From positions 1 to 45,103 of the forward strand of contig JALGVI010000015.1 of assembly GCA_029838215.1 (NCBI GenBank): DNA of 45,103 nucleotides. Direction: 5' to 3'. The notes under the pieces are model-generated. The model was not told the DNA's origin. It searched no databases and saw only the letters and a program-made list of their open reading frames with translations. Source of the DNA: Candidatus Helarchaeota archaeon. Its GTDB lineage: Archaea; Asgardarchaeota; Lokiarchaeia; Helarchaeales; RDOG01. A program made the translations under genes and the position numbers. Every line of letters begins with the position of its first letter. Position 1 is the stretch's first letter. Below, piece by piece: positions 24,746-36,646 of the stretch.

Positions 24746-25315
24746 ATGGTAGAAGAGACGCAAGTAAAACTCATAATTTTTAGTGCGTTATTAAGTGCAT
24801 TGCATGATATAATGGGAAAAGACGGAAAGAATTCAATCTTGCGCTTTGCTGGCTTATCTGAATACATAGATAAAGAAATTAGTCCGTCAGTTGATGATTC
24901 CATTCCATTCGATGTGGTCAAGAGGTTAATAGATGCCATGCAATCACTGCTGGGACACGGAACAAATGCCATTCTTTATGAATCGGGACGAAAATTTGCG
25001 GTTTACTTGTCTCCTTTTGGATATTCTTTAGAAGAAGTCATTCACAAGCTAGAAAAGTGGTTTGGAGGAAAATGGCAACTTGTTAAGGCAGGTGCCGAAA
25101 ATTCTACCGTCGTGAAGATTGAAAATAATCCGATTTGTCGCGGGTGTCATTCAGACAAACCTTATTGCCACATTGTTAGTGGAACACTTGCCCGAATCCG
25201 TGAGGAAGCAACAGGGGAAAAGAGTTTTGCAAAAGAAATCCGTTGTATAGCAATGGGACATGATGCATGTCAATTTGTAATAAAACCATATAATATGAAA
25301 GGAAAACGCGGCTAG
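24746..25315 (+). CDS. V4R (4-vinyl reductase / Bet3-related) domain protein
   Basis: G..AILYESGRKF, NPIC...PYCH..SGTL, EIRCIAMGHDACQF. Confidence 0.85.
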   Translation: MVEETQVKLIIFSALLSALHDIMGKDGKNSILRFAGLSEYIDKEISPSVDDSIPFDVVKRLIDAMQSLLGHGTNAILYESGRKFAVYLSPFGYSLEEVIHKLEKWFGGKWQLVKAGAENSTVVKIENNPICRGCHSDKPYCHIVSGTLARIREEATGEKSFAKEIRCIAMGHDACQFVIKPYNMKGKRG

Positions 25316-25328
25316 TGGATGGAATAAC

Positions 25329-25850
25329 ATGGGAAGCAAGTATGTTTTTAAGATAGTCGTATTGGGTTCAGAAGCAGTTGGAAAAACCTCGCTCATCAAT
25401 AGATACGCTGAAAAAAAGTTTACTTCAGAATATCACCCAACGCTTGGAACAAATATCATCATCAAGGAAGTAAATTTGCCCGATATTCAGAGTCAGGTCA
25501 AGTTAATGCTATGGGACATTGCTGGACAACGGAAATGGACGGAGGTTCGACATTTATATTATAAAGGTGCTCAAGGGGCACTTTTAGCATTTGACGTTAC
25601 CAGACCAACTACATACAACGCGATTTCAGAGTGGAATAAAGATCTTGCGGATTTTGTTGGGGAGGTCCCTAAAATCCTGATCGCAAATAAGATGGATTTA
25701 GTTGAAGATATCAAAATAAATGAGACGGAAGGGGAAAATATGGCAAAACAAATTAACGCTTTTGGCTTTCTAATGACTAGTGCTAAAACAGGCGAACGCG
25801 TGAATGACGCATTTGAATCTTTAGCAAAAGAGATAATCAGATCATCATAA
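25329..25850 (+). CDS. Rab-like small GTPase
   Basis: G1 GSEAVGKTS, G2 PTLG, G3 WDIAGQ, YYKGA, G4 NKMD, G5 TSAKTG; no C-terminal Cys. Confidence 0.93.
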   Translation: MGSKYVFKIVVLGSEAVGKTSLINRYAEKKFTSEYHPTLGTNIIIKEVNLPDIQSQVKLMLWDIAGQRKWTEVRHLYYKGAQGALLAFDVTRPTTYNAISEWNKDLADFVGEVPKILIANKMDLVEDIKINETEGENMAKQINAFGFLMTSAKTGERVNDAFESLAKEIIRSS

Positions 25851-25883
25851 ATAATGCTCAATTCTCCAAAAACTATCAGTTAG

Positions 25884-26840
25884 GTGAAAAAAATGGTCAA
25901 TCTCAACAAATTAAATACGTTACTAAATAACTTTATTGATTCTATTAACATGGTTGAAGCCACGATTCTCATGACTAAAGAAGGGTATATTATCACATCA
26001 ATTGTAAAAGATTTAGGGGAGGAATCGATTGGCGGCGTGACTCAAATCGTTCGATACATTTCCGATGTAATAACATTCGATCCAGCCCTCTCTGAAGAAC
26101 GAGGCATCAAAGAACTTTCTACACCAGAGAAACTTTTCATTTTTAGGCAAGTCGACCCAAAGATCATGTTTTGCGTCATTTGTAATCCACTAATTAATGG
26201 AAAAATCGCAAAAGCTTATTCTGAATTCGTTGCAAAAAAAATTGAACAGCTTCTGGAAGACAAGGACATTCCCTTAGAAATTCCCAAGATGGAACCGGAT
26301 GAAAAAGAAAAGGAAAAGGGCAAAGAATATGTTTTCAAGATTTGTGTCTTGGGTGATCCTGGTGTGGGAAAAACCACGTCCATCATCCAATTTGCACAAA
26401 GCCGGTTTGAGAGCGAATACAAATCAACGATTGGAGTATCAATCATAAAAAATGACCTTAATATCGATGGAGACACAATTCATCTCCAAATATGGGACAT
26501 CGCTGGACAAGAACGATGGGCAGGAATGCGACGCGTTTATTATGCAGGGTCTCTTGGAGCTCTATTATTATATGATGTTACCAGAGTTCAATCTTTTGAC
26601 AACCTTGAAAAATGGGTAAATGAGTTCCAAACGTATACGTCTTCAGAGAATCCATTGCTAATGATTGGTAATAAAATCGATTTAGTGCAAATTCGAAAAA
26701 TATCAAAGGAAGACGGAGAAAAGAAAGCAAGTGAATTTGGAATACCATATCTGGAAACATCAGCAAAAACTGCAGAGAATATTAATAGGGCATATGAAGA
26801 ACTAGCTCGAAGTCTAATTAGAAAAATATCTGAAGAATGA
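25884..26840 (+). CDS. Roadblock/LC7-like domain fused to a Rab-like small GTPase
   Basis: N-terminal VEATILMTKEGYIITS roadblock-like pattern; C-terminal GDPGVGKTT, STIG, WDIAGQE, NKID, ETSAKT. Confidence 0.88.
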   Translation: MKKMVNLNKLNTLLNNFIDSINMVEATILMTKEGYIITSIVKDLGEESIGGVTQIVRYISDVITFDPALSEERGIKELSTPEKLFIFRQVDPKIMFCVICNPLINGKIAKAYSEFVAKKIEQLLEDKDIPLEIPKMEPDEKEKEKGKEYVFKICVLGDPGVGKTTSIIQFAQSRFESEYKSTIGVSIIKNDLNIDGDTIHLQIWDIAGQERWAGMRRVYYAGSLGALLLYDVTRVQSFDNLEKWVNEFQTYTSSENPLLMIGNKIDLVQIRKISKEDGEKKASEFGIPYLETSAKTAENINRAYEELARSLIRKISEE

Positions 26841-26868: not shown

Positions 26869-26953
26869 TGGCGCCGAGAATGGGATTTGAACCCATGCTC
26901 CCAAAGGGAACGGACTCTCAAGGCCCGCGTCGTAGCCGCTTGACTACCTCGGC
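26869..26953 (-). tRNA. tRNA-Ser (anticodon UGA), long variable arm, CCA encoded
   Basis: Acceptor stem GCCGAGG/TCTCGGC, anticodon arm CGGGC-CTTGAGA-GTCCG, T arm ATGGG-TTCAAAT-CCCAT, discriminator G73. Confidence 0.95.
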
Positions 26954-27024: not shown

Positions 27025-27870
27025 TTAGGAGATTAGGAGGGTTTGTATGAACTCTTTATCAAGATCTAATTTACGGATTCGATCCCAGTCCTTTTTAAGA
27101 TATGGAAATGCCAGTTTTGAAACGATTTCCTTCATTTGATCCTTGAATATTTCTCGCATTAAATCCACGTAGAATCGAAATATTTGAGAGAGTCCTTTAC
27201 GCAGTTCGTGTTCTTTGATGTCTTGTTGAAACACGTTTAGAGTGAGGAGATCCCAGCCTTTTTCTGTATAATTCACGTTTTTAAAAGATTTTGGAAGTAA
27301 TTGCTTGATCGTTTCCATTTTTTGGTCAAGAATTTTTTCTCTACCCTTGACAATCGTATGGGTGACTTTTGATAATAGATGAAGGAGTTGTTGATATACT
27401 TCGATGACATCCATTAATTCTGCAGCTTTTGTGATTTTCTGGGCTTTTTTCCAATCTTGGTAGAGCTCGTCCATTTTTTCCGTGAATACTTCAAACTGTG
27501 ATGTGTTTCCATCCCAATTATCTGAGAATTCGGGATCAAGAACAAATTCAAATTTATCATTGAAGTTAGTTTTTATCACGTTCAATTGCGCGCGGATTTC
27601 ATTGGAAGAATCATCCATCTCGGCTGCCGTGATGAATAATAGGTTTGGATCTTCAATATAAACCCACTTAAGTCCTCCCATTTCAATGCTCTCTATTGCT
27701 TTAAACTCTCGGGCTTTTTGATCGGGAGAGCAAGATATTTCTTCAGCAAACCGATAAAGTGCGGTTAGAAATGAAGTTAAAAGGTCGGGATCGGACACGG
27801 CTTTAGCATATGCGCGGTTAAAGATGTTTCTTCCTGATTTCAAATCTAAAATCCAAACCTCACGAATCAA
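27025..27870 (-). CDS. Longin-like domain protein with unknown helical C-terminal domain, paralogue A (TTG start)
   Basis: IREVWIL...SG..IF.R.Y, LLTSFLTALY.FAE, IESIEMGGLKW.Y, LLFITAA; homologous to 35852..36646. Confidence 0.7.
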   Translation of the reverse strand: MIREVWILDLKSGRNIFNRAYAKAVSDPDLLTSFLTALYRFAEEISCSPDQKAREFKAIESIEMGGLKWVYIEDPNLLFITAAEMDDSSNEIRAQLNVIKTNFNDKFEFVLDPEFSDNWDGNTSQFEVFTEKMDELYQDWKKAQKITKAAELMDVIEVYQQLLHLLSKVTHTIVKGREKILDQKMETIKQLLPKSFKNVNYTEKGWDLLTLNVFQQDIKEHELRKGLSQIFRFYVDLMREIFKDQMKEIVSKLAFPYLKKDWDRIRKLDLDKEFIQTLLIS

Positions 27871-35851: not shown

Positions 35852-36646
35852 GTGAGAACGATGATTAAAGAATTATGGATTGTCGACAAGCAATCGGGAA
35901 CCACTCTCCTCCAGCGTGGTTACGGGCAGACTCAGACGAGTGAACGTTTAATGTCCGGTTTTTTACAAGCAATTTACGGACTTTATCAGTATGCGGAGTC
36001 GGAGTTGGCATCAGCTGAGGGTGGTAAGGGCTTGGAAAGCATAAACATGGTCGGCATGAGATGGTTATATGAAGAGAAAAAAGGATTGATTTTTATTGCT
36101 GCCACGGACAAGGAAACTCAATTGGAATTATTGCTAAGTCAATTGAACTTGATAGCTGACACGTTTATTGAAAAATTCGGCTCGCCGTTTGAAGCACTTT
36201 ATGGGGGGGGCTTGGAAAAATGGCTTGAAGGTGATTTTTCTCCATTCCTACTTGAATTGGATGATATTGTCTCGCAATGGGATCAGATGAAGCGTGTTGA
36301 GAATGCGGCAAAGGTCATGGATTTTCTTGACGTTGTTCAAAACGTCATGGAGCGATTCCAGAACTTCCCAGGTTTTGACACATTAATTGAAGGGGGGCAT
36401 CTCGACATTTTGGGACAGGCATTTGCAGATGGGAATTGGGACATGTCTTTTCTTTCAAGCATAGATGAATCCGACTTGCGAGAAAAGATCGAACGGATCT
36501 TCGGTCATATAATGGAATTCTTCATTTCCCAGGGCTTAGACGTTATCACGTTATGCAGGACATATCTTCATCCGTATTTCAAAACAGACTGGACGCGGAT
36601 AAAAGAAACGGGCTTGGACGATCTTTTAATCCAATTATTCATATAG
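35852..36646 (+). CDS. Longin-like domain protein with unknown helical C-terminal domain, paralogue B
   Basis: IKELWIVDKQSG..L, LMSGFLQAI, LESINMVGMRWLY, LIFIAA; homologous to 27025..27870. Confidence 0.7.
   Translation: MRTMIKELWIVDKQSGTTLLQRGYGQTQTSERLMSGFLQAIYGLYQYAESELASAEGGKGLESINMVGMRWLYEEKKGLIFIAATDKETQLELLLSQLNLIADTFIEKFGSPFEALYGGGLEKWLEGDFSPFLLELDDIVSQWDQMKRVENAAKVMDFLDVVQNVMERFQNFPGFDTLIEGGHLDILGQAFADGNWDMSFLSSIDESDLREKIERIFGHIMEFFISQGLDVITLCRTYLHPYFKTDWTRIKETGLDDLLIQLFI

What the first reader, a model, noticed from the sequence alone, without database searches (positions are those of the whole stretch)
24746..26840. V4R - Rab-like GTPase - roadblock/Rab fusion operon: a possible proto-TRAPP/Rab switch
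Seen in sequence: three co-oriented genes with gaps of 13 and 33 bp. Both GTPases keep G1-G5, the catalytic Gln (WDIAGQ) and Rab-like YY(K/A)G(A/S) motifs, and neither has a C-terminal prenylation Cys. The second is fused to a roadblock-like domain. Established: V4R domains are related to the Bet3 subunits of TRAPP, a Rab GEF. Roadblock/longin domains are the usual GEF/GAP platforms of small GTPases, and Rag GTPases are GTPase-roadblock fusions. Inference: a ligand-sensing V4R protein may control a two-GTPase cascade, placing TRAPP-like, Rab-like and Rag-like parts in one transcription unit.
Basis: partly seen in the sequence, partly recalled or inferred. Interest (0 to 1): 0.75.

Follow-up and report, generated by a model that had tools for sequence, protein, structure and literature searches.

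The report
Sensor-fold protein paired with Rab-like GTPases
In this Helarchaeales-type Asgard archaeon a zinc-site V4R sensor-fold gene sits directly in front of its own Rab-like GTPase gene, a pairing kept throughout the class Lokiarchaeia, and here a roadblock-Rab-like fusion gene follows; this names testable partners for GTPases in the closest prokaryotic relatives of eukaryotes.

Summary
The three co-oriented genes are a V4R protein (24746-25315), a 173-aa Rab-like GTPase (25329-25850) and a roadblock-fold domain fused to a Rab-like GTPase (25884/25893-26840).

The V4R-to-GTPase adjacency is strongly conserved. I found it in every related locus with enough sequence: 29 of 30, 76 of 80 and 9 further contigs. 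These span Helarchaeales and Lokiarchaeales, while the flanking genes change. The roadblock-GTPase fusion is a Helarchaeales-only accessory, and I found it only close to this pair.

- The V4R protein matches Pfam V4R and not Pfam TRAPP. It keeps a conserved Cys/Glu/Cys/Cys set whose spacing I recall as that of the MopR zinc site.
- Its model ties structurally between H-NOX, Thor-TRAPPC3, V4R and Bet3.
- The fused G domain is Rab-like, not Rag-like.
- Thorarchaeial proteins that do match Pfam TRAPP had no Rab-like GTPase gene (by this pair's GTPase profile) in the stretches I examined.

A V4R+GTPase complex prediction gave only weak support (0.39 against 0.00 for the best control).

I found no paper that describes this pairing. 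Tran et al. 2024 state that MK-D1 GTPases are generally not in operons with such genes. This scan has already found the same pair on other Lokiarchaeia genomes. This window adds the Helarchaeales form and the fusion gene.

The parts
24746..25315 (+). V4R-domain protein, 189 aa (P0001). Full-length H-NOX/V4R/Bet3-superfamily fold, with a conserved Cys141/Glu164/Cys167/Cys175 candidate zinc-ligand set.
   Evidence: Pfam V4R 58.8 bits against a cut-off of 31. AF2 pLDDT 89. VIA Z 12-13 to H-NOX, Thor-TRAPPC3, MJ1460 and PoxR. C141, H142, E164, C167 and C175 are invariant in 14 Helarchaeales orthologues.
25329..25850 (+). Rab-like small GTPase, 173 aa (P0002). It is the GTPase that follows the V4R gene across Lokiarchaeia. 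No prenylation Cys.
   Evidence: Pfam Ras 1e-46. Best solved relative is Thorarchaeota Rab 7ezb (7.4e-37), then Rab23 and Rab14. The GTPases downstream of the V4R gene in 22 other loci are 43-55% identical to it. It lies immediately downstream of the V4R gene in all loci with sequence.
25884..26840 (+). Roadblock-fold N-domain (about aa 1-135) fused to a Rab-like GTPase (about aa 146-318) (P0003/P0005). The likely true start is ATG 25893.
   Evidence: AF2 model plus Foldseek place the N-domain with roadblock/MglB/LAMTOR structures. The G domain's best PDB hits are Rab2B and Rab8A at 1e-44. The orthologues recovered from proteins and fetched loci all lie beside the V4R-GTPase pair wherever context was readable, and a weaker match in G003 lies 7.5 kb from its V4R gene.

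Best explanation
This is the Helarchaeales form of a two-gene module found across the class Lokiarchaeia. A stand-alone V4R-fold protein with a candidate zinc site is encoded directly upstream of one particular Rab-like GTPase. In this lineage a third gene, a roadblock-Rab-like GTPase fusion, has joined the unit.

Shown here:
- The domain identities of all three genes.
- The conservation of the pairing through several different flanking contexts.
- The near-exclusive co-location of the fusion family with the pair.

Inferred mechanism:
- The V4R protein is the input device of the switch. Its pocket or its Cys/Glu/Cys/Cys site senses a small hydrophobic ligand or the thiol/redox state, as V4R domains do in PoxR/MopR/DmpR and MsvR.
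- It binds its cognate GTPase directly and biases that GTPase's nucleotide state or output.
- The roadblock domain of the fusion most likely dimerises, as roadblock domains do in MglB, Ragulator and Rag C-terminal domains. It then provides either a platform or GAP-like surface for the neighbouring GTPase, or a second coupled switch.
- The three genes are probably co-transcribed, given the gaps of 13 and 33-42 bp.

This works like other prokaryotic operons that encode a small GTPase with its dedicated regulator. It is not a member of the TRAPP family.
For: Domains.

Conserved adjacency of the V4R gene and a co-oriented GTPase directly downstream:
- 29 of 30 loci from 41 related genomes; the exception is cut by the contig end.
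- 76 of 80 loci from a species-level genome collection; three of the four exceptions are cut at a contig end.
- 9 further metagenomic or MAG contigs, with gaps of -14 to +31 bp.

The flanks differ:
- epimerase / longin-like / archease-RtcB;
- glycosyltransferase / S13-S4-S11 operon;
- PPC-GTPase upstream and an aminotransferase downstream in Lokiarchaeales.

The two V4R subfamilies are homologous over 146 columns (hhalign 99.3%, E 1e-20).

The downstream GTPases are mutually closest. After its Helarchaeales orthologues, P0002's next best hits are the Lokiarchaeales V4R-linked GTPases (170-160 bits), ahead of its own genome's best paralogue (159 bits). The margin is marginal.

The roadblock-GTPase family:
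- same-strand three-gene unit in the window, L151, L152, the P0008 contig and L153;
- divergent neighbour in L038 and L039;
- 7.5 kb away on the same contig in G003.

Candidate zinc-ligand set: C141, E164, C167 and C175 are invariant in 14 orthologues.

Complex prediction, V4R + GTPase: weak support, score 0.39 with the best of 3 controls at 0.00.
- The mark was reached by 58 of 80 solved complexes and 2 of 110 mismatched pairs.
- At 0.60 or under it was reached by only 7 of those 80 solved complexes and by both mismatches that passed.
- The runs agree in at least 97% of contacts, and the partner's pLDDT is at least 78.
Against: - There is no experimental or transcript evidence. Co-transcription is inferred from gap sizes only.
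- The complex score is in the range where a pass is more often wrong than right unless the guess was likely beforehand. Solved TRAPP-Rab complexes could also give a pass from memory.
- One Lokiarchaeales genus (4 genomes, 90-100% complete) lacks the V4R gene but keeps the PPC-GTPase-GTPase cluster. The GTPases can therefore persist without it.
- In Lokiarchaeales the V4R-GTPase gap is 40-130 bp, enough for a separate promoter.
- The quick tree does not resolve Helarchaeales and Lokiarchaeales V4R-linked GTPases as one clade.
- A V4R paralogue in the same genome is not next to a GTPase.
- Within Helarchaeales the pair always lies near the S13-S4-S11 operon, so part of the local synteny may be inertia.
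Confidence: 0.55

Rival explanations
1. Proto-TRAPP reading. The V4R protein is a Bet3-like subunit of a primitive TRAPP-type exchange factor. Possibly together with a longin or roadblock partner, it catalyses GDP release from the adjacent Rab-like GTPase.
For: - V4R and Bet3 share a fold and ancestry (Podar et al. 2008, PMC2253512; Tran et al. 2024, PMC10933270).
- The model aligns to Bet3 and Thor-TRAPPC3 at Z 11.9-12.6.
- hhalign of the Helarchaeales V4R family against the Thor PF04051 family gives 93% probability, E 2.4e-7.
- A longin-like gene lies convergently downstream here and in family-level relatives.
- The complex score is weakly positive (0.39 against 0.00 for the best control, with the calibration caveats).
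Against: - None of the 24 aligned family members matches Pfam TRAPP, while the 7 Helarchaeales members match V4R.
- The fold match is tied with H-NOX and phenol-sensor V4R domains.
- The protein keeps the conserved Cys/Glu/Cys/Cys set. From memory, sensor V4R domains (MopR/PoxR) use ligands with this spacing. Mouse TRAPPC3 has a hydrogen bond in place of the zinc site (Tran et al. 2024).
- From established knowledge of the TRAPP-Ypt1 structure (PDB 3CUE), the Rab-binding surface is made mainly by the longin subunits Bet5 and Trs23. Bet3 contributes only its C-terminal tail. The C-terminal tail of P0001 is variable and modelled with low confidence.
- Asgard proteins that do match PF04051 had no match to this pair's GTPase profile in 30 loci and two 12-kb stretches.
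- The longin-like neighbour is kept only at family level and is on the opposite strand.
Confidence: 0.12
2. Effector reading. The GTPase is upstream and the V4R protein downstream. GTP-bound GTPase recruits or opens the V4R dimer, which carries or delivers a hydrophobic ligand (for example a lipid or hydrocarbon). The module then controls ligand handling rather than sensing it.
For: - Tran et al. 2024 propose ligand binding or transport for Asgard TRAPPC3/V4R proteins, from cavities in the crystal structures.
- Some public records name the orthologues 'predicted hydrocarbon binding protein'.
- The conserved adjacency and the weak complex score (0.39 against 0.00) fit binding in either direction.
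Against: Nothing here distinguishes the direction of control. No membrane-targeting element was seen on either protein: there is no prenylation Cys. GFP fusions of related Asgard proteins were diffuse in HeLa cells (Tran et al. 2024).
Confidence: 0.15
3. No direct interplay. The genes are only neighbours that share a promoter or a stable chromosomal position next to the ribosomal-protein operon. The V4R protein works on something else.
For: - These genomes carry 40-70 small GTPase genes each, so GTPase neighbours are common.
- One genus keeps the GTPases without the V4R gene.
- A V4R paralogue pairs instead with an OST3/OST6-family membrane protein.
- Within Helarchaeales the pair always lies near S13-S4-S11.
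Against: - The pairing survives at least four different flanking contexts and two orders. V4R identity falls to 25-28% while gene order, strand and immediate adjacency stay fixed.
- It is always one particular GTPase subfamily, not any GTPase.
- The fusion gene family occurs only beside or near the pair.
Confidence: 0.12

Closest known systems
V4R sensor domains (Pfam PF02830): MJ1460 (PDB 2OSO/2OSD), the PoxR/MopR/DmpR phenol sensors and the MsvR redox-sensing domain
   Same: The Pfam V4R match is above the cut-off. The best PDB sequence hit is MJ1460, and there is an NCBIfam partial match to the MsvR V4R part. VIA Z is 12.1-12.4. The conserved Cys/Glu/Cys/Cys set has spacing 23/3/8, which I recall as the spacing of the MopR zinc site.
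   Different: The protein stands alone, with no DNA-binding or AAA+ output domain. Instead its gene is fixed next to a Rab-like GTPase gene. An N-terminal helix aligns over the full length to H-NOX domains, but the H-NOX haem histidine position (His100 here) is not conserved.
Asgard TRAPPC3-like proteins (Thorarchaeota, PDB 7YH2/7YH3) and eukaryotic Bet3/TRAPPC3
   Same: Same fold (Z 11.9-12.6). Remote profile similarity centred on the Cys-rich C-terminal part (hhalign 93%). Eukaryotic TRAPP acts on Rab GTPases.
   Different: No Pfam TRAPP match. The Thor PF04051 genes sit behind a roughly 310-aa protein with a weak winged-helix match, and no match to this pair's GTPase profile was found in the stretches examined. 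Tran et al. 2024 report no operon link between MK-D1 GTPases and TRAPPC3 genes.
MglA-MglB and the roadblock/longin-GTPase fusions of Prometheoarchaeum MK-D1 (Tran et al. 2024)
   Same: A Ras-superfamily GTPase is encoded with, or fused to, a roadblock-fold regulator. The N-domain matches MglB, MglC and MK-D1 Roadblock3. In MK-D1, 26 of 74 GTPases are fused to roadblock or longin domains.
   Different: The roadblock domain is not detectable by the Pfam profile. The G domain is Rab-like and keeps the catalytic Gln. This fusion family is confined to Helarchaeales and tied to the V4R-GTPase pair.
Rag/Gtr GTPases with Ragulator
   Same: A GTPase domain joined to a roadblock domain that could dimerise.
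   Different: The order is reversed: the roadblock is N-terminal. The G domain has no Gtr1_RagA match, and its best hits are Rab2, Rab8 and Rab1.

Membership tests
V4R domain family (Pfam PF02830) | Match to the family profile above the curated cut-off | tested here: met
   58.8 bits against a cut-off of 31, E 5.7e-16, aa 122-181. All 7 Helarchaeales-order members of A1 match. The 17 Lokiarchaeales members do not match at E 0.01.
V4R domain family (Pfam PF02830) | Two-layer alpha/beta fold shared with MJ1460 and PoxR/MopR | tested here: met
   AF2 pLDDT 89. VIA Z 12.4 (rmsd 4.0, 145 aligned) to 2oso and 12.1-12.2 to PoxR, MopR and DmpR.
V4R domain family (Pfam PF02830) | Zinc site formed by Cys/Glu/Cys/Cys ligands | tested here: inconclusive
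   C141, E164, C167 and C175 are invariant in 14 orthologues. The spacing 23/3/8 equals that of MopR C155/E178/C181/C189, which I recalled from memory. Metal binding itself was not tested.
TRAPP Bet3/TRAPPC3 family (Pfam PF04051) | Match to the family profile | tested here: not met
   No hit at E 0.01 for P0001 or any of the 24 family members. The whole-genome search of G000 found none, while 43 of 43 genomes of one other Asgard family matched.
TRAPP Bet3/TRAPPC3 family (Pfam PF04051) | Fold closer to Bet3 than to other members of the superfamily | tested here: inconclusive
   Z 11.9 for Bet3 and 12.6 for Thor-TRAPPC3, against 12.8 for H-NOX and 12.4 for V4R. All are within 1 Z unit, which is a tie.
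TRAPP Bet3/TRAPPC3 family (Pfam PF04051) | Assembly with longin subunits into a Rab exchange factor | not testable with these tools
   Only a weak two-chain prediction with the GTPase is available (0.39 against 0.00 for the best control).
Rab family small GTPases | G1-G5 motifs with the switch-II catalytic Gln | tested here: met
   Read directly. The motifs are conserved in 23 orthologues.
Rab family small GTPases | Closest solved relatives are Rabs | tested here: met
   P0002: Thor-Rab 7.4e-37, Rab23, Rab14. P0003 G domain: Rab2B 6e-44, Rab8A, Rab1A, Rab11A.
Rab family small GTPases | C-terminal Cys motif for geranylgeranylation | tested here: not met
   The C-termini are ...EIIRSS and ...RKISEE. 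None of the 23 orthologues ends in Cys. Hence 'Rab-like', not Rab.
Roadblock/LC7 (Pfam PF03259) | Match to the family profile | tested here: not met
   No hit at E 0.01. Only 1 of 7 orthologous N-domains reaches E 0.077. A profile search of PDB sequences found nothing.
Roadblock/LC7 (Pfam PF03259) | alpha-beta-beta-alpha-beta-beta-beta(-alpha) roadblock fold | tested here: met
   The AF2 topology is H4-17, E21-28, E33-38, H45-59, E73-76, E81-88, E91-97, H103-121. Foldseek probability is 1.00 and TM 0.68-0.77 to 9jue, MglB, MglC, Thor roadblock and LAMTOR.
Rag/Gtr GTPases | Gtr1/RagA-type G domain followed by a C-terminal roadblock domain | tested here: not met
   P0003 has no Gtr1_RagA match. 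Its roadblock domain is N-terminal and its G domain is Rab-like.

The most novel reading that the evidence does not exclude
The V4R-fold protein is a direct nucleotide-state regulator (exchange factor or GDI-like lock) of its Rab-like GTPase, gated by a ligand or by thiol chemistry. The roadblock-Rab fusion would be its GAP-like or dimerising partner. A Bet3-fold/Rab functional relationship would then have existed in Asgard archaea before TRAPP, and could be reconstituted from three small soluble proteins.
Probability: 0.13. Interest if true: 0.85.

Novelty: new variant of a known kind. Interest (0 to 1): 0.6.

Why it matters
Asgard genomes encode dozens of eukaryote-like small GTPases. Almost none has a known partner, and the one structural study of these proteins concluded that genome layout does not help to pair GTPases with regulators (Tran et al. 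2024, PMC10933270).

A sensor-fold gene fixed beside one GTPase subfamily across a whole class gives a concrete pair to purify and test. In Helarchaeales it gives a trio. A positive result would show what kind of input an archaeal Rab-like switch reads. It would also show whether the Bet3/V4R fold already worked with Rab-like GTPases before eukaryotes arose.

If there is no interaction, the module is just a conserved neighbourhood of known domain types.

Tried and rejected
- RNA evidence: no RNA holder is listed for window:24400-27000. Only one DNA run held a small share of the words, and I laid no reads.
- The sigma-70 promoter and terminator scan was not used, because the organism is an archaeon.
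- Sequence-only detection of the roadblock domain failed: Pfam, PDB phmmer and PDB profile search. The assignment rests on the predicted fold.
- H-NOX haem-sensor reading: rejected. The Pfam HNOB hit is below its cut-off (17 against 25.5 bits). The histidine at the position of the haem ligand (His100) is not conserved among orthologues.
- Phyletic-profile test: genomes without the V4R gene have lower best scores to the GTPase profile (253-272 bits, against 300-310 in three Lokiarchaeales genomes that have it). However, the tandem GTPases they keep fall inside the same cluster clade, so loss of the GTPase together with the V4R gene is not shown.
- The careful maximum-likelihood tree did not finish in the time allowed. 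Only the quick tree (SH-aLRT) is cited, and its deep nodes are open.
- Paralogue test: the second V4R gene of this genome (contig C111) and its counterpart in G001 have no GTPase neighbour.
- Literature searches for the pairing found only Tran et al. 2024 and Podar et al. 2008. None describes the operon. Subscription-only papers are not covered.
Full report
**What is there.** One search lists three + strand ORFs at 24746-25315, 25329-25850 and 25884-26840. ORFs on the opposite strand inside them are short and lie within genes that have clear homologues.
- Gene 1 matches Pfam V4R (58.8 bits against a cut-off of 31).
- Genes 2 and 3 match the Ras family (E 1e-46 and 7.8e-52).
- Both GTPases show G1 (GxxxVGKT), the switch-I Thr, WDIAGQ, YYKGAQG or YYAGSLG, NKxD and TSAK. 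Neither ends in Cys.
- Gene 3 probably starts at ATG 25893, which has AGGTGA upstream. The public copies are 315 aa.

**The organism.** The closest loci are from Candidatus Helarchaeota MAGs (Hel_GB_A, Hel_GB_B and 'Helarchaeales archaeon'). More distant ones are labelled Promethearchaeota/Promethearchaeia. The window therefore comes from a Helarchaeales-type member of the class that contains Lokiarchaeales. The assembly has 3.6 Mb in 170 contigs and is 94% complete. It has about 55-60 Ras-superfamily ORFs, many with long N-terminal extensions.

**Gene 1.**
- By sequence, the best solved relative is the V4R protein MJ1460. NCBIfam gives a partial match to the V4R part of MsvR.
- An AF2 model built on 24 relatives has pLDDT 89.
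- Structural comparison gives a tie within one Z unit: soluble guanylate cyclase H-NOX 12.8, Thor-TRAPPC3 12.6, MJ1460 12.4, YslB 12.4, MopR/DmpR/PoxR 12.1-12.2 and Bet3 11.9. The fold places it in the H-NOX/V4R/Bet3 superfamily, but not specifically with Bet3.
- Pfam TRAPP (PF04051) matches none of the 24 family members, while V4R matches the seven Helarchaeales ones.
- In 14 Helarchaeales orthologues C141, H142, E164, C167 and C175 are invariant. The Cys/Glu/Cys/Cys spacing is the one I recall for the MopR zinc site. That comparison is from memory, not tested.
- The His at the H-NOX haem position is not conserved.

**Gene 3.**
- Its first roughly 135 residues have no detectable sequence family.
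- They fold with confidence (pLDDT 82.8) as alpha-beta-beta-alpha-beta-beta-beta-alpha.
- They match roadblock proteins: MK-D1 Roadblock3, MglC, MglB, Thor roadblock and LAMTOR subunits, at TM 0.6-0.77 and Foldseek probability 1.00.
- The G domain's best solved relatives are Rab2B, Rab8A, Rab1 and Rab11, and it has no Gtr1/RagA match. It is a roadblock-Rab-like fusion. It is not a Rag homologue, and its domain order is the reverse of Rag.

**Conservation of the pair.**
- A search of 41 related genomes found a V4R homologue in 34. In all 30 loci fetched a Ras-family GTPase lies directly downstream on the same strand, except one locus cut by the contig end.
- A scan of one genome per species found 121 relatives. 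Of the best 80 loci, 76 have the downstream GTPase, and three of the four exceptions end at a contig edge.
- Nine more contigs from protein look-ups show the same pair, with gaps of -14 to +31 bp.
- The surroundings change:
  - epimerase upstream with a longin-like gene, archease and RtcB downstream;
  - glycosyltransferases upstream with the S13-S4-S11-RpoD operon downstream;
  - in Lokiarchaeales, PPC/DUF296 and one or two extra GTPases upstream with an aminotransferase downstream.
- The Helarchaeales and Lokiarchaeales V4R subfamilies are only 25-28% identical, but they are clearly homologous (hhalign 99.3%, E 1e-20).
- The family is restricted to this class. In 201 genomes across the phylum, the only strong matches were in the window's own genome and in 35 of 40 genomes of the main Lokiarchaeales family. 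Elsewhere there were only weak generic V4R hits.

**The GTPases.**
- The GTPases downstream of the V4R gene in 22 other loci are 43-55% identical to P0002 and share many invariant positions.
- In a quick tree, the GTPases of the Lokiarchaeales cluster (downstream and upstream copies) form one clade (SH-aLRT 98). The Helarchaeales V4R-linked GTPases form another (87), and the fusion G domains a third (99). The nodes joining them are unresolved.
- By BLAST, after its Helarchaeales orthologues, P0002's next best hits are the Lokiarchaeales V4R-linked GTPases, marginally ahead of any paralogue in its own genome. The nearest relatives of the fusion G domain outside its own family are V4R-linked GTPases. 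This is consistent with orthology across the class, and with the fusion arising from a local duplication. It does not prove either.

**The fusion gene.**
- All relatives of its roadblock domain found in 5.8 billion proteins (five clusters), plus those in fetched loci, sit by the V4R-GTPase pair.
- There are five same-strand three-gene units: the window, L151, L152, the P0008 contig and L153.
- There are two divergent arrangements (L038, L039), and one copy 7.5 kb away on the same contig (G003).
- Other Helarchaeales lineages have the pair without it.
- It is therefore a lineage-specific accessory of the module.

**Physical interaction.** The one complex job (V4R + GTPase, each with its alignment) gave weak support: score 0.39 with the best of three controls at 0.00.
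- The mark was reached by 58 of 80 solved complexes and 2 of 110 mismatched pairs.
- At 0.60 or under it was reached by only 7 of those 80 and by both mismatches that passed.
- The runs agree in at least 97% of contacts, and the partner's pLDDT is at least 78.
- Solved TRAPP-Rab complexes exist, so some memory effect cannot be excluded.

**Against the TRAPP-specific reading.**
- Proteins matching Pfam TRAPP occur in 43 of 43 genomes of another Asgard family (the Thor-TRAPPC3 type). They occur in 0 of 40 Lokiarchaeales genomes, and not in this genome.
- In 30 such loci, and in two 12-kb stretches, no ORF matched this pair's GTPase profile.
- Instead each TRAPP-like gene follows a roughly 310-aa protein with a weak winged-helix match, and one is followed by a true V4R gene.
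- The Helarchaeales V4R family relates to these proteins only remotely (hhalign 93%, E 2.4e-7, mostly the Cys-rich part). The Lokiarchaeales subfamily barely relates to them at all (33%).

**Limits of the link.**
- One Lokiarchaeales genus (four genomes, 90-100% complete) lacks the V4R gene yet keeps PPC-GTPase-GTPase.
- A V4R paralogue in this genome and in G001 has no GTPase neighbour. It follows an OST3/OST6-family membrane protein gene.
- No RNA data were available.

**Literature.**
- V4R-Bet3 homology is established (Podar et al. 2008, PMC2253512).
- Tran et al. 2024 (PMC10933270) solved Thor-Rab, Asgard roadblock and Thor-TRAPPC3 structures and catalogued roadblock/longin-GTPase fusions in MK-D1. 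[quoted passage not shown]
- Six full-text searches found no description of a conserved V4R-Rab-like operon.

**Earlier notes of this scan.** Earlier AI notes report the same V4R-to-GTPase pair on other Lokiarchaeia genomes. They also report other Bet3/V4R-fold-GTPase cassettes. I re-derived the pair's conservation independently here. The other cassettes were not tested.

**Verdict.** The best-supported reading is a sensor-fold partner wired to a dedicated Rab-like GTPase, with a Helarchaeales-specific roadblock-Rab fusion added. The TRAPP and Rag labels are analogies at fold or architecture level, not memberships. The mechanism (binding, direction and effect on the nucleotide cycle) is inferred and needs biochemistry.

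Noticed in passing
window 26869-26953 (-): A tRNA-Ser (anticodon TGA) lies between the end of the fusion gene and the convergent longin-like gene. It marks the 3' boundary of the three-gene unit.
   Followed up: partly
window 27025-27870 (-): A 281-aa protein has only a weak first-longin-domain match (Fuz_longin_1, E 0.008, below cut-off). It is conserved in the same convergent position, followed by archease and RtcB, in family-level relatives: G001 at 55% identity, and 275-283-aa ORFs with no Pfam match at the same position in L151, L152 and L154. A paralogue lies at 35852-36646. Its fold was not modelled.
   Followed up: partly
G000 contig C111:221-1352 (L115) and G001 C1 (L116:4708-5957): The second V4R paralogue of this genome (about 32-33% identical to P0001) is preceded by a roughly 185-aa membrane protein. 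That protein matches OST3/OST6 (PF04756, 31.5 bits against a cut-off of 27). The V4R gene is flanked on its other side by a RadB/KaiC-like gene. The arrangement is the same in both genomes, with no GTPase.
   Followed up: partly
L158 (G045:C81:50000-62000), L159 and L121-L150: In the Asgard family whose proteins match Pfam TRAPP, two TRAPPC3-like genes lie about 3 kb apart. Each sits directly behind a 304-325-aa protein with a roadblock/longin-like N-terminal sequence and a weak C-terminal winged-helix match. The first module is followed by a V4R (PF02830) gene. No ORF matched this pair's GTPase profile.
   Followed up: partly
L040-L114 and L118 (G032:C10:207000-218000): In Lokiarchaeales the cluster reads PPC/DUF296 - GTPase - (GTPase) - V4R - GTPase - aminotransferase. 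The extra GTPases are local duplicates in one clade. One genus has PPC - GTPase - GTPase with the V4R gene missing.
   Followed up: partly
G000 whole genome: About 55-60 Ras-superfamily ORFs occur in 3.6 Mb. At least ten have 120-180-aa N-terminal extensions. Three of these (on contigs C103, C90 and C110) are recognisably related to the roadblock domain of the fusion.
   Followed up: no
L155-L157 and L036: In one Helarchaeales lineage the V4R-GTPase pair sits directly upstream of, and co-oriented with, the S13-S4-S11-RpoD ribosomal operon. An unusually long non-coding stretch of about 570-620 bp precedes the V4R gene.
   Followed up: no
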